A stretch of 47,217 nt of DNA, taken from Gemmatimonadota bacterium. Its GTDB lineage: Bacteria; Gemmatimonadota; Gemmatimonadetes; Gemmatimonadales; GWC2-71-9. Shown piece after piece: positions 27,860 through 43,361 of this stretch. The stretch's first letter is position 1. Each line of letters opens with the position of its first letter. The stretch covers positions 1-47,217 of the forward strand of contig JADFPO010000014.1 in NCBI GenBank assembly GCA_022562295.1. The letters run 5' to 3'. A model generated the notes under the pieces. It did no database searches, was not told the origin of the DNA, and saw only the letters and a program-made list of their open reading frames with translations. Made by a program: the position numbers and the translations under genes.

Positions 27860-28012
27860 CTCCACCACTCCACTCCACTCCACACCCGGCGGGCCCCTAC
27901 CACACCGCCACACCGCCCGGCGGGCCCCCGCCGCTCTTCTACCCATCCCGGCGGGCAGCCAGTACCGCCCACCTGCCCATCTGCCCACCTGCCCGCCCGC
28001 CCGCCTGCCCGC
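27860..28012. repeat. convergent intergenic region built almost entirely of short-period repeats (pentamers, a motif spaced at 31 nt, octamers)
   Basis: CCACT x3-4 at 27866-27885. cccggcgggc at 27885, 27916 and 27947 (spacing exactly 31). Six phased octamers CYGCCCRY at 27965-28012 abut the stop at 28013-28015. Confidence 0.85.
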
Positions 28013-29863
28013 CTACCGCCCTACCGTCACGCTGGTAAAGGCCGGATCCAACTCCGAAAACCCGATGTCATCGACCACGACCGTCCCGGATGCTACGCGG
28101 TCGAACACGAAGCGGATGGTGGTGAGTCGCGAGAGATCGAGCCGTGGGGTGACGAGGAGGAAGTCGCCGAGCGGTAGCGAATAGGTCTGCAACATCAGGT
28201 CGTAATTCTCGGGGAAGCGCTCCTGATCTCCTCTTCGCATGATTCTGATTCCGAGCGGCCGTCGCACGACGCCGTACCGGCTGATCGCGAGTTGCGCTCG
28301 GGCGCCGGCCGCGTCGGCAAGTTCGATCGTCAGATCGATTGGCTGCTGGTCGTCTCGACTCCCGCGCGTCGGCCCCGTGGGCGCGAGGAGAAAATCCAGC
28401 GATGTACTGGACGAGAGGTTCATCTCGTCGCCGAGGGAACCGGGCAGCGTCACGGCGTAGGAACCCGGAGTATTTTCCCCCTCCCTCTCCTCCTCCCCCT
28501 CCGAGCGATCGTCCCAACCCAACCAGACCGCTTGATTCTCCTGCGATTTCGAGGTCGTGGAGCGGTTGCGAGACCGTAGCAAGAGACGTCCCTCCCGCCA
28601 CGTTGTCAGGTGATCTCCCCGCAACGTCACACCCTGCTTGGTGCCGGACGTGACGTCGATGTCCTCTTCGAAGGTGGCGAGCGCCCGGAACGTGCTGGTT
28701 TGAAAGCGGGTGATATACATCGTCTTCGGGAGCCACCCACCGATGACCCGATGGTCCCGAAAGATCGGGAGATAGCGCTTGTCGCCCTTGAGCGTCGCCT
28801 CCAAAAATGCGGGTATATAGATCTTGGCGAACTGCCGTTGATCTTCGGCATCCATCAACGCCCCGAGGTTCAGAATCCGGCCGCTCCGTCCGCCGGTATC
28901 GCCACTTCCCCACACGGTGTTCCACTGACCGTGGTTGGCCCGATACACATATATCGCCGTCTTGAATCTCGGGACGCCGTCGGTAAATCGGATTCTGTGG
29001 TACAGCCGTAGTCCGTGAAAGCTGGTGACGTCGCCGTCGTGAGAACCGTGGAACACCATGTAGTTGACGTTCTGTACCGGCACGTGCCTGCCGGTCGGCA
29101 GGTACTGTCCGTCCACCGGCGCAATGGCAATCACCGACTGGATCCCGAAATTGAAATCGAACTCCAGGGTGGCGTCGTCGGGGTAATGGCTAAGGCGGTT
29201 GAACGCCGCGGCATGCCCCACGGCCTCGCCACCGCGCGAGTGTCCGATGACAGCGATCTTGTCCATATCTACCTTGCGGTAGAACGGGTTCCCTTGGCTT
29301 CCGGTGAACTCCCTCCATGCCTCGAGGTGCTTGAGGAACAACCACCCGCGCGCGTCGTTCTCCTCACGGATGCCCCCATTCACGAAATTCATGTCCACCG
29401 ACGTCATGATGAATCCGCGGCTCGCGAGCAGCTTTCCGAGATAGCCGTATCCAGGATCCGAGAACTCTCTCATGTTGTGGTTTCCGTGCGCGATCAACAC
29501 GAGCGGAAACGGGCCGGGACCTTCCGGATACCACACGCGCCCATTGAGAGGGAACGCGCTCGGATCGAAGCCCCAGTACCCGTTTCGTTCCTTCGCCTGT
29601 CGTCCGAGGTCGACGAGCTTCCTCGCATCGACCGGATCGGTCCGGATCGTTATGGAATCTCGGTACTCGGGCCGGCGCCGGTCGGTCCCACTGCCGTAGT
29701 ACAACGTGCGCACTTCGTATTGGCCGGGCTCCGCTGGATTCGGTGCATCGAGCAGCTGTTGCGCCAAGACTACATCGGCATCGTTCGGGGCAAGACGCAG
29801 CGAACTGCTGCAACCCATGGGAACGATTGCCAACAAAGTCAGTTTGAACAGTCTCTTTCGCAT
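28013..29863 (-). CDS. alpha/beta-hydrolase-fold lipoprotein with a C-terminal domain of unknown function
   Basis: ATG 29863 gives MRKRLFKLTLLAIVPMGCSS (lipobox-like). LVLIAHGNHN and the nucleophile elbow VIGHSRGGEA. The C-terminal ~250 aa are unassigned. Confidence 0.65.
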   Translation of the reverse strand: MRKRLFKLTLLAIVPMGCSSSLRLAPNDADVVLAQQLLDAPNPAEPGQYEVRTLYYGSGTDRRRPEYRDSITIRTDPVDARKLVDLGRQAKERNGYWGFDPSAFPLNGRVWYPEGPGPFPLVLIAHGNHNMREFSDPGYGYLGKLLASRGFIMTSVDMNFVNGGIREENDARGWLFLKHLEAWREFTGSQGNPFYRKVDMDKIAVIGHSRGGEAVGHAAAFNRLSHYPDDATLEFDFNFGIQSVIAIAPVDGQYLPTGRHVPVQNVNYMVFHGSHDGDVTSFHGLRLYHRIRFTDGVPRFKTAIYVYRANHGQWNTVWGSGDTGGRSGRILNLGALMDAEDQRQFAKIYIPAFLEATLKGDKRYLPIFRDHRVIGGWLPKTMYITRFQTSTFRALATFEEDIDVTSGTKQGVTLRGDHLTTWREGRLLLRSRNRSTTSKSQENQAVWLGWDDRSEGEEEREGENTPGSYAVTLPGSLGDEMNLSSSTSLDFLLAPTGPTRGSRDDQQPIDLTIELADAAGARAQLAISRYGVVRRPLGIRIMRRGDQERFPENYDLMLQTYSLPLGDFLLVTPRLDLSRLTTIRFVFDRVASGTVVVDDIGFSELDPAFTSVTVGR

Positions 29864-30862: not shown

Positions 30863-32055
30863 GCAGCATCCGGGTGAGACTGTCCACCATGATGTTCTTG
30901 CAGTATTTCATTTGGGGAGCATGGTGGGTGACACTCGGGACTTACTTGGGACAAACCCTTCAGTTCGACGGCCGGCAGATCGGGTTTGCTTACGGAACCA
31001 TGGCCATCGCCGCCATGATTTCTCCGTTCTTCGTCGGGATGATCGCAGACCGATTCTTCTCCACAGAGCGGATCCTCGCGGCGCTGCACATCGTGGGAGG
31101 CGTGATCCTGTACGCAGGATCCACGCGGCTGTCGTTCGGTCAGCTCTATCCCGTCATCATCTTGTACGCTCTGCTGTACATGCCGACGTTGGCGCTCACG
31201 AACTCGATTTCTTTCCACCATTTAGAAGATGGTGCCCGAGAATTCCCACGGGTTCGGGTATGGGGAACCATCGGGTGGATCGTCGCCGGAATCCTCGTCG
31301 GGCGCCTGGGTTTGGAAGCGAGGGTGATCCCCATGCAGATCGCCGCGGGAGCCTCGATCGTAACTGGCCTGTACTGCCTTATTCTCCCTCACACACCTCC
31401 CAAAGCCGCCGGTGGACCAGTCAAGGCACGTGACGTTCTGGGCCTCGACGCGCTTTCCCTCATGAAAGACCGCTCCTTCGCGATCTTCGTCATCGGGTCG
31501 CTCTTGCTGTCGATTCCACTTCAGTTCTACTATACCTTCACCAACCTCTTCTTGAACGAACTCGGCATGGCAGAGCCGGCCACGAAGATGACCGTGGGTC
31601 AAATGTCGGAGATCGTCTTCATGGTGTTGATGCCCTGGTTTCTACTCCGACTCGGCGTGAAGAAGATGCTGCTCGTGGGGATGCTGGCGTGGACGCTGCG
31701 GTACGTCCTGTTCGCGTTCGGGAACGTCGGCAGCATGGTATGGATGCTCTACCTCGGTATTCTGCTACATGGGATATGCTACGATTTCTTCTTCGTAACC
31801 GGGCAGATTTACGTAGACCAAAAGGCACACGAAAAGATCCGTGCGGCGGCACAGGGGTTTATCGCGTTCGTCACGCTAGGTGTGGGGTTGTTTATCGGGG
31901 CGTTGGTTTCGGGAGCCGTGGTGGAGGCGTACACTATCACGGGCGGCACCGTGCCGCATGACTGGCGCACGATTTGGTTGATCCCCGCGATTGGCGCTGC
32001 AGGGATACTGGCACTCTTTGCGGTGATGTTCCGACCAGAACACAGTGAGTCGTGA
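30859..32055 (+). CDS. MFS transporter, nucleoside:H+ symporter (NHS) family
   Basis: ATG 30859 overlaps the upstream stop (ATGA). [20 protein letters not shown] is the NHS-type N-terminus. 12 TM-like segments. The last codons H-S-E-S-stop lie in GTGAGT heptads. Confidence 0.75.
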
Positions 32056-32114
32056 GTGGTGAGTCGGGTGAGTAGCACAGCCATCGGCCAGTGGCTAAGA
32101 GCTGATAGCTGAAA
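32045..32114 (+). repeat. heptad tracts GTGAGTN x4 (32045-32074) and GCTAAGA GCTGATA GCTGAAA (32094-32114)
   Basis: Read directly. The transporter stop TGA 32053-32055 lies inside the second heptad. Confidence 0.9.
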
Positions 32115-32137: not shown

Positions 32138-33475
32138 ATGTCCTCACAGCAAATCTCGAGACGCGAATTCGTCAGCGACACGACGGCGGCCGGACTGACG
32201 TTCACGATCGTGCCACGACATGTCTTAGGCGGCCGTGGATACCGCGCGCCGAGCGATACGCTCAACATCGCGTGCATCGGCGTTGGGGGCAGAGGCAGCG
32301 CCGATGTGCGCGGCGTGAGCGACGAGAATATCTATGCACTGTGCGATGTCGATTGGAAGAGCGCGAGGAATACGTTCAACCGATTCCCCAAGGCTAAGCG
32401 TTTCAAGGATTTCCGCAAAATGCTCGAGCAGGAAGCGGCCAACATCGATGCCGTGGTCGTGGCCACACCCGATCACACGCATACCGTGGCCGCGGTCATG
32501 GCGATGGAGTTGGGCAAGCCCGTCTACTGTGAGAAGCCGCTGGCACGCACGATTTGGGAAGTGCGCCAGATGGCCGAAGTCGCCCGCACCTCGGGAGTAG
32601 CCACACAGATGGGTAACCAAGGCCACGCGCAAGACGGGACAAGACGAATCCGCGAGTGGATCGAGGCGGGTGCGATCGGCACCGTGCGTGAGGTGCAGTA
32701 CTGGACCAACCGACCCATCTGGCCGCAGGCGATCGAGCGCCCATTGGAACGGTATCACGTGCCTGCGCACCTCGACTGGGACTTGTGGCTCGGCCCCGCA
32801 CCGGAACGGCCCTACCATCCGGCGTACGCCCCGTTCAGGTGGCGTGGGTGGTGGGACTTTGGCACCGGCGCTCTCGGCGACATCGCGTGTCACTCGATGG
32901 ACGCGGCGTACTGGACGCTGGATCTGGGTTACCCGACGCGCATCGAGGCCGAATCCACCACGTTGTACGAAGAAACGGCTCCCGCGGCGTCGCGCATCGT
33001 GTACGACTTTCCCGCACGCGGCAACCGTCAGGCGGTCAAGGTCGTATGGCGTGACGGCAACATTTCGCCCCCGCGGCCCGACGAGGTGGGGGACGAACAA
33101 CCCTGGCCGTTGGAGAGCAGCGGACAGATCTGGGTGGGGGACGATGGCAAGCTCTTTGCCGGCATCTACGGCGAGAACCCGCGCCTTCTCGACGCCGAAC
33201 GGCACGCCGACCTCATGGCCAATCCGCCGGCCGAGAAGTTTGCGCGGCTGAACGGCCCGCACAAGGAATGGATCGACACATGCAAGGGCGGACCGGTCGC
33301 GGGATCGAATTTCGTCGAGCACTCGGGCCCACTCACCGAGATGGTGCTGCTCGGAAACCTGGCAGTGCGCTCCGCGAGAATCCTCGAACTGGATCCCAAC
33401 ACTGGCATGGTCACGAACACGAACATCCCCGATGAGTACACCAAGCCAACGTATCGAGACGGGTGGAGTCTGTAG
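32138..33475 (+). CDS. Gfo/Idh/MocA-family oxidoreductase with a Tat signal
   Basis: SRREFVSDTTAAGLTF twin-arginine leader, IACIGVGGRGSADV Rossmann motif, EKPLA motif. GAGGAG RBS upstream. Confidence 0.85.
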   Translation: MSSQQISRREFVSDTTAAGLTFTIVPRHVLGGRGYRAPSDTLNIACIGVGGRGSADVRGVSDENIYALCDVDWKSARNTFNRFPKAKRFKDFRKMLEQEAANIDAVVVATPDHTHTVAAVMAMELGKPVYCEKPLARTIWEVRQMAEVARTSGVATQMGNQGHAQDGTRRIREWIEAGAIGTVREVQYWTNRPIWPQAIERPLERYHVPAHLDWDLWLGPAPERPYHPAYAPFRWRGWWDFGTGALGDIACHSMDAAYWTLDLGYPTRIEAESTTLYEETAPAASRIVYDFPARGNRQAVKVVWRDGNISPPRPDEVGDEQPWPLESSGQIWVGDDGKLFAGIYGENPRLLDAERHADLMANPPAEKFARLNGPHKEWIDTCKGGPVAGSNFVEHSGPLTEMVLLGNLAVRSARILELDPNTGMVTNTNIPDEYTKPTYRDGWSL

Positions 33476-35274: not shown

Positions 35275-36153
35275 TTACGCAGCCCGCCGCGTTTGTGCGA
35301 GCTGAGCGGCGTACTCCACCGGTGTCCGATACCCGAGACTCGAATGCCGACGTTGCCGATTGTACCAGACCTCGATGTATTCAAACAGGTCGCGCGACGC
35401 TTCCCGGCGCGTTTGCCAGTCCGCCTCGGCGACCAATTCCCATTTCAGCGTGGCCATGAAACTCTCCACGACGGCGTTATCCCAACAGTTGCCCCGCCGA
35501 CTCATGCTGACCGCAATGCCCTGCGCCGCCAGGCGGTCGCGGTAGGTGCGACACGCGTACTGCACGCCCCGATCCGAATGGTGCAGCCCGCCCCCGCCAC
35601 CCTCGCGCTCCAGCGCCATGTCGAGCGCCGCCAGCGTGATGTCGTGCTGTAACGACGACCGCACCGCCCAGCCCACCACCTGCCGGTTGCCAACATCTAG
35701 AATCACCGCCAGATACAGCCACCCCTCCCGCGTGGGGAGGTACGTCAGATCCGCGGCCCATACCCGCTCGGCGCCCTGCCGGCCCACGGCAAACTGGCGA
35801 GCCAAGATATTGGGAGCCGGCGCATAGGCGTGGTCCGACTCCGTGGTCACCCGGAACCGGCGCCGTTTCTTGGCGCGCAGCCCGTCGGCCCGCATCAGCC
35901 GCTCCACCCGCTTCTTGCCACACCGCAGCCCCCGCGCCCGCAACTCGTGATATACCCGCGGGCTACCGTAGCGCCGCCGACTCTCCCGGTGAATCGTGCG
36001 AATCTCTACTCGAAGTCGCTGATCGTGTCGTGTCCGCGCGCTCGGGGCACGACGGTACGCCGCGTAGAACCCCGACCGACTCACCCCCAACACCCGACAC
36101 ATCATCGTCACCGGAAATCTGCCACGGTGCGACGCAATACACGCGTACTTCAC
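35275..36153 (-). CDS. IS3-family transposase OrfB (rve integrase core)
   Basis: WAADLTYLPT, HHSDRGVQY, GNCWDNAVVESF and YNRQRRHSSLGYRTP, typical of IS3 OrfB. In the -1 frame relative to orfA. Confidence 0.9.
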   Translation of the reverse strand: MKYACIASHRGRFPVTMMCRVLGVSRSGFYAAYRRAPSARTRHDQRLRVEIRTIHRESRRRYGSPRVYHELRARGLRCGKKRVERLMRADGLRAKKRRRFRVTTESDHAYAPAPNILARQFAVGRQGAERVWAADLTYLPTREGWLYLAVILDVGNRQVVGWAVRSSLQHDITLAALDMALEREGGGGGLHHSDRGVQYACRTYRDRLAAQGIAVSMSRRGNCWDNAVVESFMATLKWELVAEADWQTRREASRDLFEYIEVWYNRQRRHSSLGYRTPVEYAAQLAQTRRAA

Positions 36154-36449
36154 GGCGACTCCTGCGCGAAGAACACTGCCGCTTTTTTTAAGAAATCGCG
36201 CTCCTGCCTGACCCGTTCAAGCTCCCGACGCAGCTGCCGCGTCTCGTCCTCCGGCCCCGTCGCAGTGCCCTGGCCCGGAAACACCGTAGCCGGGGCCCGC
36301 TTCTCTACCTGCTGCTTCCACTTATGCAGCAAGCTCGGGGCAATCCCGAGATCACGCGCCACCTCCGCCAGCGAACGCTCCGACTCCACAGCCAGTTGGA
36401 CCGCCTCCAGCTTGAACTCCTTTGCATACTGCCGTCGCTGCTTGACCAT
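36150..36449 (-). CDS. IS3-family transposase OrfA (HTH)
   Basis: MVKQRRQYAKEFKLEAVQL...LGIAPSLLHKWKQQ. The start was moved to ATG 36449 because the track start 36515 lies outside the IS end. Confidence 0.85.
   Translation of the reverse strand: MVKQRRQYAKEFKLEAVQLAVESERSLAEVARDLGIAPSLLHKWKQQVEKRAPATVFPGQGTATGPEDETRQLRRELERVRQERDFLKKAAVFFAQESP
36183..36189 (-). other. A7 slippery heptamer (A AAA AAA G) for programmed -1 frameshifting orfA->orfB
   Basis: Minus strand reads ...ttc TTA AAA AAA GCG.... A hand translation after a -1 slip runs KKSGSVLRAGVAVKYACIAS straight into the OrfB frame. Confidence 0.75.
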
Positions 36450-36514
36450 GAACACCTCCCCACGGATTGTAGGACATCTCCTAACCATGTGTCCACCAAA
36501 CCGGGGGAGGCCCA

Positions 36515-36556
36515 CCCAATCTCAAATTCCCACTCGCCAATTTCCAATCTCCAATC
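36515..36556 (-). repeat. six phased heptads (minus sense AGATTGG type) after the M20 peptidase stop
   Basis: Plus strand reads cccaatc tcaaatt cccactc gccaatt tccaatc tccaatc. Peptidase TAG at 36566-36568. Confidence 0.85.
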
Positions 36557-36565
36557 TATTGGCCG

Positions 36566-37891
36566 CTAATCGATCCGATCCGCCTCGATCAGCCGGTACA
36601 TGAGCAACGCGGCACGCTTCGTCTGCATCGCCAGCGTGGGGAGATCGATCCACTCGTTCACCGTGTGATCGTTTCCACCACCCGGACCGAGCCCGTCGAT
36701 TGCCATATCCACCAGGCCCGCAACGAACGAGACGTCGGCCGCGCCCGCGTTGCGGGGATCCACCGCCGTTACCGGACCAAACCCCAGATCTCGGCTCGCG
36801 TCATCGAACCGTGCGAGCAGCCGGCGGTTGCCGTCAGTCGGCGCCAGCGGTGGGTAACCGTCATCGAACGTGAGTACCGCCGAAGTCCCCGGAAGGTTCT
36901 GCCCCGCAATGAAGGTCATGCGCGCGCGCGCCGCCGCGAGTTGCTCGAGCGACAAGGTCCGTAGGTCGCCGGTGACGACGGCGTGCCCGGCAACGACGTT
37001 GCTCTTTCCAAACGCCGTGCCGCGGCTCTGGAACGTGTCGTAATCGACGTCCGTGCCGGCCAGCATGACGCCAGGGTTGAAGGTGAGATAAGGTTCACCC
37101 GCCAGGCTCTGATAGAACTGCCCGAGGATCCGAGAGGCCTCATACACCGCCCCGGCACCAACCTCGGGCTGAAACAGCTGCGACGAGTGGGCTGGCGTGC
37201 CCGTCACGTCGAGACGCCAGCCGGTGGAACCCCGACGCGCGACCACTGCCGTGCGCGGGTCGCTGTCGCCGTTCTCGAAGGCGATGGCGATGTCCGCGTC
37301 TACGGCAGCTTGGATGAGTGCCTCCCGCGCAAGATCGAGCGGACGTCCGCTCCGCTCCTCGTCGCCGGTCATCACGATCGTGATGGTCATGCCGTCGAGC
37401 ACACCGGCGGCATCGAGTGCCTTCAGTGCATGGACGATGACGACGTCCCCACCCTTCATGTCGACCACACCGGGACCGCCCGCCGTCGAATCGCCCCTCC
37501 GCTCGAACCGTTGGAACGGGCTGTCGAGTTCGAACACCGTGTCGAGATGGCCGATGAGGAGAAGATGGGGTCTGGTTCCCCCCCCCTCCCCCGTGCGCCG
37601 GGCGAGCAGGTGCCCCGCACGCTCGAACGACGCGCCGTCCACCCACTCGGTGGCAAACCCGAGCGCGTCGAACTCGGCGCTCAGTACGCGGCCAACCTCC
37701 CTCACGCCCGCGAAGTTCATCGTGCCACTGTTGATGTTGACAACCCGTTCGAGCAACGCCACGGCCTCGGCGACGTGGCTGTCGACTGCTTCGATGATGC
37801 GTCGCTCAACAGCGGGAAGGTCCTGTTGCACGGACGACACCGCGCCGAGCACGGGAGTGGGCAGCAACAGGATTGCCGCAATAGTCTTCAC
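36566..37891 (-). CDS. M20-family metallopeptidase (carboxypeptidase G2-like), secreted
   Basis: LLLIGHLDTVF, GPGVVDMKGG and TGDEE motifs. GTG at 37891 gives the signal peptide (M)KTIAAILLLPTPVLGAVSS. The longer track ORF would translate the heptad tract. Confidence 0.8.
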   Translation of the reverse strand: MKTIAAILLLPTPVLGAVSSVQQDLPAVERRIIEAVDSHVAEAVALLERVVNINSGTMNFAGVREVGRVLSAEFDALGFATEWVDGASFERAGHLLARRTGEGGGTRPHLLLIGHLDTVFELDSPFQRFERRGDSTAGGPGVVDMKGGDVVIVHALKALDAAGVLDGMTITIVMTGDEERSGRPLDLAREALIQAAVDADIAIAFENGDSDPRTAVVARRGSTGWRLDVTGTPAHSSQLFQPEVGAGAVYEASRILGQFYQSLAGEPYLTFNPGVMLAGTDVDYDTFQSRGTAFGKSNVVAGHAVVTGDLRTLSLEQLAAARARMTFIAGQNLPGTSAVLTFDDGYPPLAPTDGNRRLLARFDDASRDLGFGPVTAVDPRNAGAADVSFVAGLVDMAIDGLGPGGGNDHTVNEWIDLPTLAMQTKRAALLMYRLIEADRID

Positions 37892-37898
37892 ACGGCCT

Positions 37899-37947
37899 CC
37901 GATTTCCAATCTCCACTTTTCATTCTGCAATCTCCAATCTCCAATCT
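37899..37947 (-). repeat. seven phased heptads (minus sense AGATTGG type) filling the gap after the Gfo/Idh/MocA stop
   Basis: Plus strand reads ccgattt ccaatct ccacttt tcattct gcaatct ccaatct ccaatct. Stop TAG at 37948-37950. Confidence 0.9.
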
Positions 37948-39186
37948 CTACCGCCATTCCCCCTTTGCCACCGCCGGCACGAACGCATCGAGATCCGCCG
38001 GTGGAAAGTCGATGGTCCTCCCCTGCTCCGCGCTCATATAGGCCGTCATGAGAATCTGCATCACCTCGACACCGTCGTCGAACGTCAACGCGGGCTGTTG
38101 GTCGTTCAGAAACGCCTGCGTGAAGTGACGGTTCTCGGCTTCGTACCCGTATGCGGTCCACTCGTCGGGAATGACCGGCATGAGGCCCACCTCGGCATTC
38201 TGTTTCTCGACCAGGTCTTCACCGGCTTCGCCGGACACTTCACGACTAAAGAACAACTTGAGCCCGCTCTCCAACGTGTTCCACGACATCGAGTATTCCG
38301 GCCCGAGCAGCTCGGCGGAGAGCCGCAATCCAGCCCCGACAAAACACCACGACGTTGTGACCTCACCTAAGAGCGGTGTACCGTCTTCGGTAACGTACTC
38401 GATCGTCGCGCTCGCAAAATCCTCCGCGGGACGCTTTCCGTAATCGACTTCGTCACCCATCATCTGAGCGAGCTTCTCCACGTACTCCGGGCGTGTCCAC
38501 TTCAGACTCGCGATGCGGGCCGTCACTCTCACCGGCCGGATCGAGGAGCGAGGAGCGCCGGGTTCGGTCAGCAGATGGCGCACGACCTCGACGGAGTGAC
38601 ACATCATGTCGGTCAACACACCGCCACCCTGCAGGTCCGCGCGCCAGAACCACGGCATATGCGGACCGCTGTGTTCTTCCGCCGCACGAGCCAGGTATGG
38701 ACGTCCGGTCAACGCGGCGCCTCGCGCCCAAATCAGATCGCGTCCCCGCACGACGTGCGGCGTGAAGAGTTGGTTCTCCAAGTACCCGTGGCTCAGATCG
38801 GCACTCTTGACGAGTTCGGTTACCGTGCGCGCCTCCCCCACCGTTCGCGCAAGCGGCTTCTCGCACGCAATGCCCTTCAGCGACCCCCTCCCCGCCTTGA
38901 TGGCGTCCACGACCTCCTCGACGTTCTCGATTCGCGCGTGATTGGGTCCGCACAACCAGATCGCATCGATGCTCGGGTCATCGACCATGTCGGCGATGGA
39001 CGAATATGGCTTGGCTTCCCCGACATTGAGGGTGCGTGCAAGATCGGCAGCGTCGGCAGCGTTGGCAGCGTTGGGACTGAAGATCCCCCGCACGTCCGCG
39101 TCTCGCACGCCGATTAGGGATTGGATGTGAAATCGAGCGTTGAATCCGCTGCCGATGAAGCCGATGCCGAGTCGTGATCGGGGCAT
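37948..39186 (-). CDS. Gfo/Idh/MocA-family oxidoreductase (cytoplasmic type)
   Basis: LGIGFIGSGFNARFH Rossmann N-terminus, CEKPLA motif, 412 aa. Confidence 0.85.
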   Translation of the reverse strand: MPRSRLGIGFIGSGFNARFHIQSLIGVRDADVRGIFSPNAANAADAADLARTLNVGEAKPYSSIADMVDDPSIDAIWLCGPNHARIENVEEVVDAIKAGRGSLKGIACEKPLARTVGEARTVTELVKSADLSHGYLENQLFTPHVVRGRDLIWARGAALTGRPYLARAAEEHSGPHMPWFWRADLQGGGVLTDMMCHSVEVVRHLLTEPGAPRSSIRPVRVTARIASLKWTRPEYVEKLAQMMGDEVDYGKRPAEDFASATIEYVTEDGTPLLGEVTTSWCFVGAGLRLSAELLGPEYSMSWNTLESGLKLFFSREVSGEAGEDLVEKQNAEVGLMPVIPDEWTAYGYEAENRHFTQAFLNDQQPALTFDDGVEVMQILMTAYMSAEQGRTIDFPPADLDAFVPAVAKGEWR

Positions 39187-39195
39187 GATTTCTCT

Positions 39196-39265
39196 CTGTT
39201 GGCTATCAGCTATCAGCTATCAGCTGTGGTAACGGTTAGATCACTACTCACTACTCACTACTCAC
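39196..39265 (-). repeat. ten consecutive in-phase heptads occupying almost the whole intergenic gap
   Basis: Plus strand reads ctgttgg ctatcag x3 ctgtggt aacggtt agatcac tactcac x3. The upstream gene's stop (39258-39260) lies inside the last units. Confidence 0.92.
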
Positions 39266-39869
39266 GTTCCCCATAGCTCACCCCCAACTTCCGAAGTTGC
39301 TCCTCCGGACACCCATCCCACTCAGTTGCCACGTTGCCGAGATACTGTAGGTCCTCTACACCCATTCGGCTGGACCAAAAACCGCTCGCCGTCAAATCGC
39401 GAAAGGAGGTGAAGAACGCGACACCGTGGCTCAGCTCGGGCCGCGCTCGCTCCGGCCACGCCAGCTCGTCCAAAAGTTCGGTACGCTGCGCCTCGGTGCA
39501 CTCCACGAAGGTGCTCCCGAACCGCCGCTTGCACTGCACGTCGATCCACGCGAGACCACCCCTCATGGCTGTCTGCCGACCCTGTTGATCGGCCACAATG
39601 AAGTCCATGAACTCCGGCACACCGGCGTCGGTGGCGCTGCCGGACCGTTCGTCGCGCGGCAAGATGAGATTGACGAGGATTCGAACCGTCTCGTACTCGT
39701 GCGCTGTAAAGAATTGGGGCTCGAACTGGGCACCTGCACCCGCCGCCTTGCGTGTGGCGAGCACCGCACCGCGGGCGCGTTCCACCTCTTGTGGCGTCCA
39801 ATCGAACGCCATCGCCAGCGGGGCGGCGGCGAGGAGTCTCACCATCTCACGCCGCTGCATGTTGCGCAT
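39258..39869 (-). CDS. gluconate 2-dehydrogenase subunit 3-family small subunit with a Tat signal
   Basis: MQRREMVRLLAAAPLAMA twin-arginine leader. ~200 aa, immediately downstream of and overlapping (1 nt, TAATG) the GMC flavoprotein gene. Confidence 0.75.
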   Translation of the reverse strand: MRNMQRREMVRLLAAAPLAMAFDWTPQEVERARGAVLATRKAAGAGAQFEPQFFTAHEYETVRILVNLILPRDERSGSATDAGVPEFMDFIVADQQGRQTAMRGGLAWIDVQCKRRFGSTFVECTEAQRTELLDELAWPERARPELSHGVAFFTSFRDLTASGFWSSRMGVEDLQYLGNVATEWDGCPEEQLRKLGVSYGERE

Positions 39870-41572
39870 TAGAGGTTCCCTCCGTTTCGCTCGGCGGCGA
39901 TGAACTCACTGGTGCGCATCGCGAGCGCCAGGATCGTCCAGGTCGGGTTCTTGTCGGACTGCGACACGAAGGGTCCGCCGTCGGCAACGAACAGGTTCTT
40001 CACATCGTGCGCCTGGCAATTGCTATTGAGCACCGACGTAGCAGTACTGTTACCCATGCGAGTAACCCCCACCTCGTGAATGATGCGTCCGCCGGTCAGA
40101 ATCCCGTATCCACTCTCTCGTGTGGGCATGGGAGAAAACACTTCGCCTCCCATCTCGGCGATGATGGCGCGAAAAGTCTCCTGCATGTGTTTGACCTGGT
40201 TGTACTCGTGTTCGCTCCACTTGAAGTGAAAACGCAGCACCGGAATACCCCACTGATCCACGGTGCTGGGATCGATCTCGCAGTAACTGTCCTCGTTGGG
40301 AATCATCTCACCACGACCCGAAAAACCCACCGTCGCTCCGTAGTAGCGCCGGTAATCGTCTTTGAGTGACTTCCCGTAACCACCTCCCGTGGGATATCGA
40401 TGGATTCCGCCCATGAAGCCGTAACTCGGCATCCCGCGGCCGCCCCATGGTTCGATGTGGTAGCCGCGCGGGAAATCGAGCGTCGAGTTGTCCAACCACC
40501 ACGGCGTGTAAATGTGCATTCCCCCGGCGCCGTCTTCGTTGTGCGGAACGCCATCCATCAACTTGGGAATGAACCCGGCGACGTCGGAGCCGGTACTGTC
40601 GGTCAAATACTTGCCGACCGTCCCGCTCGAGTTGGCCAGGCCATCCGGAAACAGCGAAGACGTCGAGTTCAGCAACAGGCGCGCCGACTCGCAGGCGCTG
40701 GCCGCCAGCACTACGATGCGCGCACGTACGATTTCCTCACGTCCGGTCTTCTTGTCGATGTAGATCACCCCGCCAGCGAGCCCGTTTCGGTCGATGGTCA
40801 CTTCACGCACCATCGCATCCGTCACGAGTCTCAGCCTGCCGGTGTTCATGGCCGGGGGGATGAGGACGTTGGTAGACGAAAAGTTGGCATGGATACTGCA
40901 CCCGCGACCGCATTGACCACAGTAGTGGCATGCTGGCCTGCCGTTCAACGGTTGCGTGAGAACCGACCGCCTGGCCGGAATACAGGTAACCCCCAATTCG
41001 TCGCACGCGTCCTTGATGAGCAGCTCGTAACAACGGGGCTTTGGAGGAGGCTGGAAGAAACCGTCCGGCGCGTTGCGGAGCCCCTCGTTGGTACCGTGGA
41101 TTCCCACCATTCGATCTAGGATGTCGTAGTACGGCGCGATGTCGTCATAGCCGATGGGCCAATCGTCGCCGAGACCGTCTCGGCTGCGCGCCGTGAAATC
41201 GTCCGGCCCGTAGCGCAGCGAGATGCGCCCCCAGTGGTTCGTGCGTCCACCCAGCTGCCTGACGCGGAACCAATCGAAGCTATCTCCGGGCGCCCTCGTA
41301 TACGGCTCCCCGGGGAGCGACCAACCGCCGAGCCCCGCGTGGAACTCACCGAAGTTCCGCTCGGGCGTCGAGGCCCCCCGGCGTGGTGACTCGTATGCCC
41401 ACCTGAACATGGCCGAGTCCGTCGCGTTGTCCCACATGCGACCGGCTTCAAGCAGGATGACCTCGGCGCCGGCTTCGGTGAGCTGCTTGGCGGCCATGCC
41501 GCCGCCCGCGCCGGAGCCCACGATGCATACGTCGTACTGTTGCTGGCGTTTGAGGAAAAACATGAATTCCAC
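39869..41572 (-). CDS. GMC-family FAD-dependent oxidoreductase (large subunit)
   Basis: YDVCIVGSGAGGGMAAKQLTEAGAEVILLE FAD-binding motif. C-terminal GMC pattern ...HEVGVTRMG...NLFVADGGPF. Confidence 0.88.
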   Translation of the reverse strand: MEFMFFLKRQQQYDVCIVGSGAGGGMAAKQLTEAGAEVILLEAGRMWDNATDSAMFRWAYESPRRGASTPERNFGEFHAGLGGWSLPGEPYTRAPGDSFDWFRVRQLGGRTNHWGRISLRYGPDDFTARSRDGLGDDWPIGYDDIAPYYDILDRMVGIHGTNEGLRNAPDGFFQPPPKPRCYELLIKDACDELGVTCIPARRSVLTQPLNGRPACHYCGQCGRGCSIHANFSSTNVLIPPAMNTGRLRLVTDAMVREVTIDRNGLAGGVIYIDKKTGREEIVRARIVVLAASACESARLLLNSTSSLFPDGLANSSGTVGKYLTDSTGSDVAGFIPKLMDGVPHNEDGAGGMHIYTPWWLDNSTLDFPRGYHIEPWGGRGMPSYGFMGGIHRYPTGGGYGKSLKDDYRRYYGATVGFSGRGEMIPNEDSYCEIDPSTVDQWGIPVLRFHFKWSEHEYNQVKHMQETFRAIIAEMGGEVFSPMPTRESGYGILTGGRIIHEVGVTRMGNSTATSVLNSNCQAHDVKNLFVADGGPFVSQSDKNPTWTILALAMRTSEFIAAERNGGNL

Positions 41573-41638
41573 GCGTTCCCGGTTCGGGTCGTAATCTGGT
41601 GCAGGAACGGCGTTGGCGCGAGTCGAGGGTCGAGGTTT

Positions 41639-41684
41639 CTCGCGACTGAGAGTCGCGGCTCGGCTATCTGTCGCTGAAAGCGAC
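41639..41684 (+). repeat. full 46-nt two-hairpin repeat, 66 nt upstream of the GMC start (reverse orientation relative to that gene's strand)
   Basis: ctcgcgactgagagtcgcggctcggctatctgtcgctgaaagcgac. Hairpins CGCGACT-gag-AGTCGCG (41641-41657) and GTCGC-tgaaa-GCGAC (41670-41684). Confidence 0.85.
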
Positions 41685-41907
41685 GGCTGAGCATAACCCT
41701 GCCTCGCGCAGCCCCTTCAGCCATCAGTATCTTAACGCCTCCAGCATACGCGGAACGGCCCTTCCGTATTGTCTTGCTAGAATCCGTGGAAACCCGACCC
41801 CAGCAACCAGCCAAAACGACCACGGTCGTAGTCTTCCTCTGGCGTCCCACGCATTGAGCCGCTGGTAATTACGCAGACTGGGAACCACAAGGACGGCTCA
41901 AACGCCC

Positions 41908-42233
41908 ATGTCCCGGCCCTACAAAGCTGCGATCGCTTCCAGTGGGTTGACTATTTATGACCCCATCGAGATGGGACACCCCACTCTTTGGATTCCGTCG
42001 CGTGATCTACAAGAGCTTCTCAAGAACTCCCTTGCTGGAACATCGCTCGCCGGTCCCCAATCAGGACGCGCTCCAAGGTTGTAAAGACACTCGTAGCTCA
42101 AGCCCTTGGCTATCCAATACGCTCGAGCTTCCGGAAAACACAACCCCGTTTCCCGGGGCAAAACTTCGACACCTATGTCCAGAAATCCAATTATCTGCAG
42201 ATCTGGAACGAAGCCGCCTGTCACGACGGCTAA
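41908..42233 (+). pseudogene. frameshifted, 3'-truncated fragment of a conserved-looking gene (possibly nuclease/restriction-endonuclease-like) with lower GC
   Basis: Frame 1 (41908-42084) reads MSRPYKAAIASSGLTIYDPIEMGHPTLWIPSRDLQELLKNSLAGTSLAG...stop. The sense continues in another frame (42048-42233) as RRSPIRTRSKVVKTLVAQALGYPIRSSFRKTQPRFPGQNFDTYVQKSNYLQIWNEAACHDG-stop. Hand count is 150 G+C in 280 nt for 41951-42230. Confidence 0.5.
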
Positions 42234-42236
42234 AGC

Positions 42237-42267
42237 CGCGGCTCGGCTATCTGTCGCTGAAAGCGAC
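42237..42267 (+). repeat. 31-nt partial copy (second hairpin module) of the two-hairpin repeat, followed by a T5 run
   Basis: cgcggctcggctatctgtcgctgaaagcgac is identical to 41654-41684. Followed by ctttttg. Confidence 0.85.
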
Positions 42268-42301
42268 CTTTTTGTTCAGTCGCCTTGGTGACGGTCGGAG
42301 C

Positions 42302-42325
42302 GCCGAGCCGTGGGTTTACCCGTGG
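42302..42325 (-). repeat. reverse-orientation variant module (CACGGGTAAACCCACGGCTCGGC)
   Basis: The reverse complement of gccgagccgtgggtttacccgtgg resembles 33672-33692 (ctgcgggtaaacccgcggctcg). Confidence 0.55.
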
Positions 42326-42362
42326 TGATCCCGTGCGGGGCCCCCGTTACGACAGTTGAAGC

Positions 42363-42393
42363 CGCCCCTCGGCTATCTGTCGCTGAAAGCGAC
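42363..42393 (+). repeat. 31-nt partial copy of the two-hairpin repeat
   Basis: cgcccctcggctatctgtcgctgaaagcgac. Three mismatches to 42237-42267, all in the first 6 nt. Confidence 0.85.
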
Positions 42394-42422
42394 GACGAAG
42401 CTGAGCGTGCGTCGATGGAAGT

Positions 42423-42440
42423 CCCGCCCTGAAGGGCGGG
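42423..42440. terminator. GC hairpin CCCGCCC-tgaa-GGGCGGG downstream of the isomerase gene
   Basis: Perfect 7-bp stem with a GNRA-like 4-nt loop, about 70 nt after the stop at 42510 (minus). No U-tract on either strand. Confidence 0.4.
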
Positions 42441-42453
42441 CTCCCCCGCAACA

Positions 42454-42509
42454 TCAACACCCGACACCCGACACCTGACACCTATCCCCCATCCCCTATC
42501 CCCCATCCC
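42454..42509 (-). repeat. eight phased heptads of two families (minus sense GGGATRG x4 then GTGTCRG x3-4) abutting the isomerase stop
   Basis: Plus strand reads tcaacac ccgacac ccgacac ctgacac ctatccc ccatccc ctatccc ccatccc. Stop TAG at 42510-42512. Confidence 0.92.
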
Positions 42510-43361
42510 CTAAAACCTCAATCCCTCGAGATACTCATAACTCACCCTTATCGACTCAAACTGCTCCGCCGGCCGATCGTGTTCCACGAAAAAGTGTCGG
42601 ATCCCTGCGCTCTCGCGCTCGGCGAAGATCGCCGCGAAGTCGATGCTTCCCTGCCCTACATCCACCATGGCACCGTTCGGCAAGCCATCCATGTCCTTCA
42701 CGTGCACCGACGGAAACCGTCCCGGATACCGCGAAAAATATTCCAACGGATCACGGCCACCCCGGATGATCCAAAAGAGGTCCATCTGTAGCAACACGTG
42801 CTGGCTATCGCTTTCGGCAATCAGCACGTCGTAGGGGACTTGGCCCTCGAGAAGCGCGAATTCCGCAGCGTGATTGTGATAGCCGAACGAGATTCCCGCC
42901 TCTCGCGCCCGCTCCCCGGCTCTATTGAACACGTCCGCCACTCGCTGGTACCCCGCAATGGACTCGGTCACCGACCGGGGCAGACCGGGGCAGATCAGGT
43001 AGTCGTGCCCGACCACGTTGGCGGTCTCGAGGATGGGTCCCCAGTCGTCACCCAGTACCTCATAGGAGACATGCGCAGAAGGCGCGCGCAACCCTACGTC
43101 ATCGAGCACCGCGCGTACGGCCGCAGGGGGCCGGCCGAAATAGCCGGCAAATTCGACCTCGGCGTACCCGATTGCGGCTACACGCCGCAGCGTCCCCTCG
43201 AAGTCATCCCCCATGGCCTGGCGCACGGTGTAGAGTTGGACGCCAATCCGATCCAGGGTTCCCGCGGCCCTGGTCGTAGCACCCCGAGCGTCACAGGCTA
43301 GACCCGCTGCCCCGAGGGCACCGGCGCTCAACGTCTTGAGGAACGTGCGACGATCCGACAT
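42510..43361 (-). CDS. sugar phosphate isomerase/epimerase (xylose-isomerase-like TIM barrel) with a Tat signal
   Basis: MSDRRTFLKTLSAGALGAAGLA twin-arginine leader. IGVQLYTV, GYAEVEF and FGYHNH patterns of the AP-endonuclease-2/XI-like TIM family. Confidence 0.8.
   Translation of the reverse strand: MSDRRTFLKTLSAGALGAAGLACDARGATTRAAGTLDRIGVQLYTVRQAMGDDFEGTLRRVAAIGYAEVEFAGYFGRPPAAVRAVLDDVGLRAPSAHVSYEVLGDDWGPILETANVVGHDYLICPGLPRSVTESIAGYQRVADVFNRAGERAREAGISFGYHNHAAEFALLEGQVPYDVLIAESDSQHVLLQMDLFWIIRGGRDPLEYFSRYPGRFPSVHVKDMDGLPNGAMVDVGQGSIDFAAIFAERESAGIRHFFVEHDRPAEQFESIRVSYEYLEGLRF

What the first reader, a model, noticed from the sequence alone, without database searches (positions are those of the whole stretch)
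39196..39265. Ten consecutive in-phase heptads of three unit families fill an entire 71-nt operon-internal gap
Only about 9 nt separate the tract from the next gene's ATG (39186). The rest of the gap after the small Tat subunit's stop (39258-39260) is heptads. On the mRNA strand they read GTGAGTA x3, GTGATCT, AACCGTT, ACCACAG, CTGATAG x3, CCAACAG. The 7-nt register is never broken although the unit sequence changes twice. That argues for growth by unit duplication followed by divergence, or for selection on periodicity itself. The arms are not self-complementary, so this is not a simple hairpin terminator. No recognisable Shine-Dalgarno precedes the downstream ATG.
Basis: seen in the sequence. 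Interest (0 to 1): 0.62.

Follow-up and report, generated by a model that had tools for sequence, protein, structure and literature searches.

The report
Heptamer repeat filler between operon genes
The gap between two genes of a sugar-oxidoreductase operon holds two short 7-base tandem repeats, one local copy of a repeat class that fills hundreds of gene gaps in this soil bacterium (family Gemmatimonadaceae); close relatives lack it at this spot, so it is an ordinary example of a known but unexplained kind of bacterial repeat.

Summary
The letters are as described, but "ten in-phase heptads" over-reads them. The tract is two perfect arrays on the mRNA (minus) strand: (GTGAGTA)x3.6 at 39241-39265, which contains the upstream TAG stop, and (AGCTGAT)x3.4 at 39202-39225. 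A 15-nt non-repeat spacer separates them. The "bridging" heptads match their neighbours at chance level, and the phase between the two unit families is undefined.

The tract is not special to this operon. This Gemmatimonadaceae genome has about 560 period-7 arrays, almost all intergenic. They lie close to stop codons with the G-rich strand in the sense direction. About 44% are paired with a complementary array to form long hairpins. The ordered pair GTGAGTN then GCTGATA recurs at 4-7 loci, one of them elsewhere in this window (32045-32112).

The four same-genus orthologous junctions are 15-16 nt or overlapping and have no heptads. Across the order the modal junction is an ATGA overlap. The tract is therefore a recent, lineage-specific gain. 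An independent contig from a 99.2%-identical strain has the identical tract.

The tract shows no hairpin, terminator, Rfam family or SD. The same layout is published for Xanthomonas and Nostoc heptamer repeats (PMC4692102). Verdict: a new member of a known kind, most likely transcribed filler that uncouples the two cistrons.

The parts
39241..39265 (-). Array 1: (GTGAGTA)x3.6, perfect. It contains the last two codons and the TAG stop (39260-39258) of the small-subunit gene. G>C on the sense strand.
   Evidence: It belongs to the GTGAGTN family, which has 81 loci with >=2 units in this genome.
39226..39240 (-). 15-nt non-repeat spacer TCTAACCGTTACCAC.
   Evidence: neighbour identities of 1-3 out of 7, chance level.
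39202..39225 (-). Array 2: (AGCTGAT)x3.4, the same as (CTGATAG)n, perfect.
   Evidence: The unit occurs at 21 loci in the genome.
39187..39201 (-). CAACAG (part of a degenerate unit CCAACAG, 4/7 to CTGATAG) plus AGAGAAATC, the leader of Gfo. No SD core.
39258..39869 (-). Gluconate_2-dh3 family small subunit (203 aa; N-terminus MRNMQRREMV, twin-arginine-like). Upstream cistron.
37948..39186 (-). Gfo/Idh/MocA oxidoreductase (412 aa). Downstream cistron.
   Evidence: Orthologues.
39869..41572 (-). GMC oxidoreductase large subunit. First cistron, overlapping the small-subunit start by 1 nt.
37897..37948 (-). Neighbouring junction array (AGATTGG)x7.4. It fills the 56-nt Gfo-to-M20 gap, begins at the Gfo stop, and its last degenerate unit gives the GGAGG before the probable M20 start, GTG 37891.
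36516..36557 (-). Array (AGATTGG)x6, starting 9 nt after the M20 stop. Same unit family and orientation as 37897-37948.
32045..32112 (+). Second copy of the same ordered composite. (GTGAGTN)x4 at 32045-32074 overlaps the upstream TGA stop (32053-32055). A 26-nt spacer follows, then GCTGATAGCTGA at 32101-32112 and the next gene's ATG at 32138.
42457..42510 (-). Two abutting arrays, (GGGGGAT)x3.9 and (CGGGTGT)x3.7 on the sense strand, beginning at the stop of gene 42510-43361.

Best explanation
The tract is a compound, non-hairpin copy of a genome-wide class of heptanucleotide tandem arrays that sit in the intergenic DNA of this Gemmatimonadaceae lineage, anchored at stop codons.

Shown:
- It consists of a GTGAGTN-family array that starts inside the last codons of the small-subunit gene and supplies its TAG, a short unique spacer, and a GCTGATA-family array. 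The same ordered pair occurs at several other loci.
- It was gained recently. Same-genus orthologous junctions are 15-16 nt or overlapping, and across the order the modal junction is ATGA.
- It is stable at 0.8% strain divergence.

Inferred:
- The arrays arose by copying of array sequence between loci, since variant-unit order is shared between sites, plus local replication slippage in 7-nt steps. They persist only where a 7-nt period cannot break a reading frame.
- On the mRNA the tract is carried as a 71-nt spacer. It is relatively AT-rich (46% GC against 62% for the genome), weakly structured, and has stops in all three frames.
- Because it has no hairpin or terminator, transcription probably reads through.
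- Its main consequence is that the ancestral tight or overlapping junction (translational coupling) is replaced by independent, SD-poor initiation of Gfo.
- A dedicated regulatory role is not indicated.
For: Genome-wide class:
- Period 7 is the commonest TRF period (590 rows). Exact arrays of >=3 copies number 89 for period 7, against 13 for period 5 and 3 for period 9.
- 445 of the 590 rows lie mostly in the 11% of the genome that is non-coding. Intergenic self-match peaks at lags 7, 14 and 21.
- In intergenic gaps, 62 exact arrays are observed against 0.0 in Markov simulations.
- There are 560 merged arrays in 299 gaps. Density is 2.07/kb in convergent gaps, 1.08/kb in co-directional gaps and 0.55/kb in divergent gaps.

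Stop-codon anchoring and polarity:
- 46% of arrays lie within 10 nt of a stop that faces them, against 19% for random placement in the same gaps.
- Arrays starting 0-15 nt after the stop are G>C on the sense strand 70:13. The bias holds for units without G3 runs, 33:8.
- The focal array 1 fits this pattern.

Recurring composite:
- GTGAGTN followed by GCTGATA occurs at 4 strict and 7 loose loci. No site has the reverse order or the opposite strand, and random placement gives 0.17.
- Variant-unit order is shared between loci in 13 linked groups.

Recent gain:
- L002-L005 junctions are 16, 15 and 15 nt or overlapping, with no heptads.
- 69 loci across the order have gaps from -11 to 319 nt, with a mode of -4. 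Several carry other 7-8-nt units in the same junction.
- The GTGAGTA family has 11 sites here and 1 in the eight other genomes of the genus.

Real and stable: contig Ga0114948_10049016 is 99.23% identical, with 20 SNPs and no gaps, and its tract is identical.

No local structure or known RNA.

Published precedent with the same layout: PMC4692102. Heptamers as the dominant long SSR, attributed to slippage: cited in PMC4679880 and PMC4692102.
Against: - No expression data could be obtained.
- No copy-number variation was seen in the one other strain available, so ongoing slippage is not demonstrated at this locus.
- The strong stop-proximal position and sense-strand G-richness of the class are not explained by neutral slippage alone. 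They leave room for a function, or for a targeted insertion mechanism.
- Gene calls for the genome-wide statistics come from my own rough ORF caller, so start positions in particular are approximate.
Confidence: 0.82

Rival explanations
1. Decayed hairpin element. The site once held a full GTGAGTN/NACTCAC inverted-array hairpin, like those at C43, C115 and C181, which look like putative transcript-end or mRNA-stabilising structures. It has since lost its 3' arm, leaving the 5' arm at the stop codon.
For: - 44% of arrays have a complementary partner within 150 nt.
- GTGAGT-family hairpins of -46 to -60 kcal/mol start at stop codons in the same way as the focal array.
- The spacer contains TTACCAC, which resembles one 3'-arm unit (TACTCAC) with a 1-nt deletion.
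- On RNA the two focal arrays can pair at 5 of 7 positions per unit if G-U pairs are allowed.
Against: - Complementarity of both focal arrays to their flanks is at null level: 4.0-6.5, against a null 95th percentile of 8.
- A best-rotation match of 5/7 with wobble has a chance probability of about 0.4 by my estimate.
- The same GTGAGTN-then-GCTGATA order recurs at other loci, twice with the arrays directly abutting. This points to a distinct direct composite and not to decay of a palindrome.
- More than half of all arrays are solo.
Confidence: 0.1
2. Functional periodic RNA element, which is the first reader's 'selection on periodicity'. On the mRNA, the heptads would be a phased binding platform for a single-strand RNA-binding protein (for example a cold-shock-type OB-fold protein covering about 7 nt, or S1). 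Alternatively they would be an anti-Rho, G-rich spacer that tunes Gfo translation or the polarity of the operon.
For: - The class is strongly oriented, with the G-rich strand on the sense strand next to stops, 70:13. Such arrays are unlike the C-rich, G-poor RNA that Rho prefers (established knowledge).
- The tract is weakly structured and AT-rich next to an SD-less start.
- TAACTGA heptamer repeats next to start codons in Beggiatoaceae were proposed as sites for post-transcriptional regulators, and CspB binds heptamer repeats (PMC4679880).
Against: - There is no conservation at the orthologous junction, even within the genus.
- Unit sequences differ completely between loci and genomes, which a sequence-specific binder cannot explain.
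- The register between the two arrays is not conserved among copies of the composite.
- The 'bridging' units are at chance level.
Confidence: 0.06
3. Assembly or sequencing artefact, or a chance low-complexity run.
For: The genome is a 210-contig MAG. Some heptad arrays sit at contig ends, so repeats do disturb the assembly.
Against: - An independently assembled metagenome contig from a distinct strain (20 SNPs in 2594 bp) has the identical tract.
- Markov simulations give 0.0 such arrays.
Confidence: 0.01

Closest known systems
G-rich intergenic heptameric repeats of Xanthomonas (GGGAATC) and Nostoc PCC 7120 (GGGGA(C/T)T), Rehm et al. 2015, PMC4692102
   Same: - Tandem 7-nt units, typically about 4 copies.
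- Depleted in coding regions and between divergent genes.
- The G-rich strand is on the sense strand within 50 bp of the stop, and can overlap the stop. The G-rich strand is on the antisense strand just upstream of starts.
- About 70 convergent (inverted) pairs per Xanthomonas genome have hairpin potential.
- Length and sequence vary strongly between related species.
All of these were reproduced here.
   Different: - This genome has dozens of unrelated unit families: 31 canonical units among the exact arrays.
- Most, including both focal units, have no G3 tracts and cannot form G-quadruplexes, yet the position and orientation rules still hold.
- The focal copy is a direct composite of two families and not an inverted pair.
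- The phylum is different (Gemmatimonadota).
Long simple sequence repeats (LSSRs) with heptanucleotide units, reported as the most abundant long-SSR class in many prokaryotic genomes (Mrazek et al. 2007, as summarised in PMC4679880 and PMC4692102)
   Same: The 7-nt period is specifically over-represented relative to periods 5, 9, 10 and 11. The repeats are intergenic and scattered across lineages. Polymerase slippage is the proposed cause.
   Different: - Shared variant-unit order between loci and a recurring ordered composite indicate copying between sites as well as local slippage.
- I could not read the primary paper, which is not held.
Cyanobacterial STRR sequences (short tandemly repeated repetitive heptamers of Calothrix and Nostoc) and TAACTGA repeats of Beggiatoaceae, cyanobacteria and Bacteroidetes (PMC4679880)
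   Same: Dispersed tandem heptamers in intergenic DNA, often filling the space next to a start codon that lacks an SD. Indels occur in 7-nt steps between strains, and relatives have shorter repeat-free gaps.
   Different: - Those families use one or a few fixed units per genome and, in Beggiatoaceae, are oriented towards start codons.
- The class here is anchored at stop codons and has many units.
- No 7-nt indel was seen in the one strain comparison possible.
REP/BIME elements and REPINs mobilised by RAYT (Y1) transposases
   Same: Small dispersed intergenic repeats placed after stop codons and inside operons. In this genome, many heptad arrays form stable hairpins.
   Different: - The focal tract is not palindromic.
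- The arms of the genome's hairpins are tandem arrays with non-conserved loops.
- Two of the genome's three Y1_Tnp genes are flanked by conventional palindromes (GTCGCT..AGCGAC type at C178, another type at C96), not by heptad arrays.

Membership tests
Intergenic heptameric SSR class (Rehm 2015 / Mrazek 2007 type) | Head-to-tail tandem copies of a 7-nt unit, about 3 or more copies | tested here: met
   Two perfect arrays of 3.6 and 3.4 copies.
Intergenic heptameric SSR class (Rehm 2015 / Mrazek 2007 type) | Genome-wide over-representation of period 7 in intergenic DNA, with depletion in coding regions and divergent gaps | tested here: met
Intergenic heptameric SSR class (Rehm 2015 / Mrazek 2007 type) | G-rich strand on the coding strand within 50 bp of, or overlapping, the stop codon | tested here: met
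   Array 1 overlaps the TAG and has G3 C0 per unit on the sense strand. For the genome the ratio is 70:13, and 58:3 for arrays overlapping the stop.
Intergenic heptameric SSR class (Rehm 2015 / Mrazek 2007 type) | Not conserved at orthologous gaps of related species | tested here: met
Intergenic heptameric SSR class (Rehm 2015 / Mrazek 2007 type) | G3-4 tracts able to form G-quadruplexes (specific to the Xanthomonas/Nostoc subclass) | tested here: not met
   Neither GTGAGTA nor CTGATAG contains GGG. Only 126 of 416 arrays in the genome have 3 or more G3/C3 runs.
Heptad-array hairpin elements of this genome (inverted pairs) | A complementary array within about 150 nt, giving a long stem-loop | tested here: not met
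   Focal arrays score 4.0-6.5 against a null 99th percentile of 9.4. Fold z = -1.5.
REP/BIME (RAYT-associated) | Imperfect palindrome of 20-40 nt | tested here: not met
REP/BIME (RAYT-associated) | Copies flank a RAYT (Y1 transposase) gene | tested here: not met
   Three Y1_Tnp genes exist. Two of them (C178, C96) are flanked by conventional palindromic repeats, of the GTCGCT..AGCGAC type at C178. TRF finds only short heptads (2-3 units) within a longer duplicated flank at C178.
Intrinsic (Rho-independent) terminator | GC-rich stem-loop followed by a T tract | tested here: not met
   No site in 39187-39265. The fold is not distinct from shuffles.
Phase-variable contingency SSR | Copy number varies between closely related strains, and the repeat lies in an ORF or a promoter spacer | tested here: inconclusive
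   The tract is identical in one strain at 99.23% identity, so n = 1. The location is inter-cistronic.
Any Rfam RNA family | Covariance-model match | tested here: not met
   No match at E <= 1 in 36300-42700.

The most novel reading that the evidence does not exclude
The stop-codon anchoring, the fixed polarity (G-rich arm first on the sense strand), the recurring ordered composites such as GTGAGTN then GCTGATA, and the sharing of variant-unit order between loci may not be by-products of slippage. They could be the footprint of an undescribed dispersal mechanism that inserts or seeds 7-nt arrays at gene 3' ends. Alternatively they could mark a general RNA-level function, such as transcript-end or inter-cistronic punctuation that protects against Rho or exonucleases, in Gemmatimonadaceae and, convergently, in Xanthomonas and cyanobacteria. 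On that reading the focal tract would be a working 'half element' that sets the expression ratio of the small subunit and Gfo.
Probability: 0.1. Interest if true: 0.7.

Novelty: new member of a known kind. Interest (0 to 1): 0.3.

Why it matters
This tract alone matters little. It is lineage-specific filler in one operon junction and should not be annotated as a regulatory element.

The class it belongs to is more useful. This Gemmatimonadaceae genome reproduces every positional rule reported for Xanthomonas and Nostoc heptamer repeats, yet most of its units cannot form G-quadruplexes. That argues against G4 formation as the general explanation for the class. It leaves two questions open: why the period is 7 nt, and why the G-rich strand sits at stop codons.

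In practice the arrays supply stop codons and sometimes SD motifs, change cistron spacing and break MAG assemblies. Gene callers and operon predictions in this phylum should take them into account.

Tried and rejected
- Hairpin or terminator reading. The RNA fold of 39170-39290 gives z = -1.5, the terminator scan finds nothing in the gap, and direct complementarity of each array to its flanks is at null level. Rejected.
- Known RNA family. No Rfam match at E <= 1.
- 'In-phase' claim. Unit-by-unit identities and rotations, and registers at the other composite loci, give no support.
- Ascertainment bias as the cause of the sense-strand G-richness, on the idea that G-rich units carry TGA/TAG and so define the stop. 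It was controlled by using only arrays that begin after the stop, and the bias persists at 70:13.
Exact-protein look-ups found nothing. One metagenome scan found a single contig with an identical tract.
- REP/RAYT link. Y1 transposases are present but flanked by other repeats.
- Primary SSR survey paper. It is not held in the library, so it is cited only through PMC4692102 and PMC4679880.
- Loop or spacer conservation among composite copies. None was seen by eye, and no alignment was pursued.

Full report
**1. Observation**

The TAG stop of the upstream gene is at 39260-39258 and the next ATG is at 39186, so the gap is 71 nt.

TRF reports two perfect period-7 arrays: 39241-39265 (3.6 copies) and 39202-39225 (3.4 copies).

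- GMC oxidoreductase, 39869-41572.
- Gluconate_2-dh3 small subunit, 39258-39869.
- Gfo/Idh/MocA oxidoreductase, 37948-39186.
- An M20 peptidase follows.

"Ten in-phase heptads" is an over-reading.
- Successive unit identities are 7, 7, 4, 1, 2, 3, 7, 7, 4. The three "bridging" units are therefore at chance level and form a 15-nt non-repeat spacer.
- The two unit families are equally similar (3/7) at three different rotations, so a common phase cannot be defined.
- Array 1 begins 5 nt inside the ORF and supplies its stop.
- True arrays cover 41 of the 71 gap bases.

**2. A genome-wide class**

The window is contig C124 of a 3.79-Mb, 210-contig assembly with 62% GC. The titles of the closest orthologous loci place it in the family Gemmatimonadaceae.

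Period 7 is over-represented:
- It is the commonest TRF period, with 590 rows. Exact arrays of >=3 copies number 89 for period 7, against 13 for period 5 and 3 for period 9.
- With my own rough gene call (3300 genes, 89% coding), 445 of the 590 rows lie mostly in non-coding DNA. Intergenic self-match peaks at lag 7, with echoes at 14 and 21.
- Markov simulations of the intergenic DNA give 0.0 exact heptamer arrays, against 62 observed.

There are 560 merged arrays in 299 gaps. Density is 2.07/kb in convergent gaps, 1.08/kb in co-directional gaps and 0.55/kb in divergent gaps.

Position and polarity are strongly biased:
- 46% of arrays lie within 10 nt of a stop codon that faces them, against 19% for random placement in the same gaps.
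- Arrays that start 0-15 nt after a stop are G>C on the sense strand 70:13. This control excludes the bias that would arise from G-rich units defining the stop.
- The rule also holds for units without any G3 run, 33:8.
- Arrays next to start codons are C>G on the sense strand.

**3. Hairpin elements and solo arrays**

- Of 110 neighbouring array pairs, 54 are reverse complements at >=6/7 unit identity (null about 5%). The G-rich arm is nearly always 5'.
- These pairs fold into stems of -46 to -80 kcal/mol. Their loops are not conserved, and the first arm often overlaps a stop codon.
- By direct search, 182 of 416 arrays (44%) have a complementary partner within 150 nt, and the rest are solo.
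- Every array in this window, including both focal arrays, is solo, with scores of 4.0-6.5 against a null 99th percentile of 9.4.

**4. The focal tract is a copy of a recurring composite**

- GTGAGTN arrays occur at 81 loci and GCTGATAGCTGA at 21 loci.
- The ordered, same-strand pair occurs at 4 loci by a strict criterion (C29, C122, window 32045-32112 and the focal tract) and at 7 loci by a loose one. No site has the reverse order or the opposite strand, and random intergenic placement gives 0.17.
- At C25 and C122 the two families abut through an intermediate unit (GTGAGTC|GTGAGCT|GATAGCT). Unit divergence within one array is therefore a fair description of their relationship.
- The register between the families is 4, 4, 5 and 6 (mod 7) at the four strict sites, so register is not conserved.
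- Variant-unit order is shared between distant loci in 13 linked groups. For example, one 28-mer is identical at C68 and C115. This indicates copying between sites in addition to local slippage.

**5. Comparative evidence**

- Small subunit followed by Gfo is conserved in the four same-genus genomes. Their junctions are 16 nt (with a GGAGG), 15 nt, 15 nt and an overlap, and none has heptads.
- Across 69 Gemmatimonadales loci the gap ranges from -11 to 319 nt, with the mode at -4 (ATGA overlap).
- Several lineages carry other 7-8-nt units in the same junction: L047 AAACGGG, L054 CGCAATC, and L078, L089, L093 and L098.
- The GTGAGTA family is essentially private to this genome: 11 sites here against 1 in the eight other genomes of the genus.
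- Period-7 density is 156 rows/Mb here and 68/Mb in a complete same-genus genome, where period 7 is still the top period and 3 of 5 adjacent pairs are inverted. Two genomes of another family show no period-7 peak.
- An independent metagenome contig, Ga0114948_10049016, is 99.23% identical over 2594 bp (20 SNPs, no gaps) and carries the identical tract. The tract is therefore real and stable at that divergence.

**6. Local function tests**

- The fold of 39170-39290 has z = -1.5, with 19 of 200 shuffles folding as well.
- No promoter-like or terminator-like site lies in the gap, and no Rfam family matches.
- The tract is 46% GC. It carries 14 stop triplets across the three frames on the mRNA strand, against 2 on the antisense strand.
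- The genome's 16S tail is canonical. The Gfo leader's anti-SD duplex energy is -3.6 kcal/mol, equal to the coding-control median. Only 34% of called starts have an SD core, so the missing SD is not unusual here.
- The neighbouring junctions carry the same class: (AGATTGG)x7.4 fills the 56-nt Gfo-to-M20 gap, and (AGATTGG)x6 follows the M20 stop.

**7. Mechanism**

The following steps are shown: class membership, recent gain at this junction, the composite identity of the tract, the absence of a hairpin or terminator, and stability in a second strain.

The following steps are inferred:
- The arrays originate by slippage in 7-nt steps plus copying between loci.
- The tract is transcribed as an unstructured inter-cistronic spacer.
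- Its main effect is to replace the ancestral tight or overlapping junction with independent, SD-poor initiation of Gfo.

**8. What is known**

- Heptanucleotide repeats are reported as the most abundant long SSRs in many prokaryotes, with polymerase slippage as the proposed cause (Mrazek et al. 2007, as summarised in PMC4679880 and PMC4692102). The primary paper is not held.
- Rehm et al. 2015 (PMC4692102) describe the same layout for Xanthomonas GGGAATC and Nostoc GGGGA(C/T)T repeats, with five shared features: depletion in coding and divergent regions; the G-rich strand on the sense strand within 50 bp of, or overlapping, the stop; about 70 inverted pairs per genome; about 4 units; and poor conservation between species.
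- Neither paper mentions Gemmatimonadota, and my literature search found no description for this phylum.
- The differences here are the many unit families and the fact that most units cannot form G4 structures, which argues against G4 formation as the general cause.
- A REP/RAYT link is not supported. Of the genome's three Y1 transposase genes, two are flanked by conventional palindromic repeats, of the GTCGCT..AGCGAC type at C178.
- Earlier notes of this scan on other Gemmatimonadaceae genomes reach the same class-level reading. I treat them as agreement and not as independent evidence.

**9. Verdict**

The tract is an ordinary, recently gained, non-hairpin member of a known but mechanistically unexplained repeat class. 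Interest is low to moderate (0.3). Novelty: a new member of a known kind.

Noticed in passing
window 32045-32112 (+): A second copy of the ordered composite. (GTGAGTN)x4 overlaps the TGA stop of the upstream gene, a 26-nt spacer follows, and then GCTGATAGCTGA lies ahead of the next gene's SD and ATG (32138).
   Followed up: yes
window 37897-37948 and 36516-36557 (-): The M20 peptidase gene is bracketed by two direct arrays of the same unit family (AGATTGG, x7.4 and x6). The upstream array ends in the GGAGG that precedes the probable true start, GTG 37891. Longer ORF calls (starts at 37957 or 38161) run through the array and are probably wrong. M20 is not found downstream of Gfo in the relatives checked.
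   Followed up: partly
genome-wide, e.g. G000 C43:1656-1760, C115:14834-14930, C71:18733-18850: About 90 long hairpins (-46 to -80 kcal/mol) have arms that are complementary heptad arrays. The G-rich arm is 5', loops are not conserved, and the first arm often overlaps a stop codon. The arms mirror each other's unit variants exactly.
   Followed up: partly
window 27965-28013 and genome-wide: The octamer family AGGCGGGC/GCCCGCCT accounts for 30 of the 41 exact octamer arrays of >=3 copies in the genome. Period 8 is the second non-coding period that is strongly over-represented (33 in gaps against 0 simulated).
   Followed up: partly
window 35275-36153 (-) and 36150-36455 (-): An IS3-family transposase (HTH_21 plus rve domains) with a short upstream ORF lies immediately downstream of the operon. 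It may mark a rearrangement boundary.
   Followed up: no
window 41580-41640 (-); G000 C178:80-340 and 690-940: Conventional REP-like palindromes (GTCGCTTTCAGCGAC, GTCGCGACTCTCAGTCGCGAG) lie upstream of the GMC gene. The same GTCGCT..AGCGAC type of hairpin flanks a Y1_Tnp (RAYT-like) gene on contig C178, which suggests a separate REP/RAYT system in this genome.
   Followed up: partly
L093 (CAWCML010000005) small-subunit-to-Gfo junction: In another Gemmatimonadaceae MAG the same junction has grown to 319 nt. It holds eight copies of a 16-nt unit (CCGATACCACGCAGGG) followed by C-rich heptads that run up to the ATG.
   Followed up: no
G000 contig ends (C116:1-33, C181:95-127, C209:210-241): Heptad arrays sit at or near several contig ends, so these repeats probably cause assembly breaks in this MAG.
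   Followed up: no
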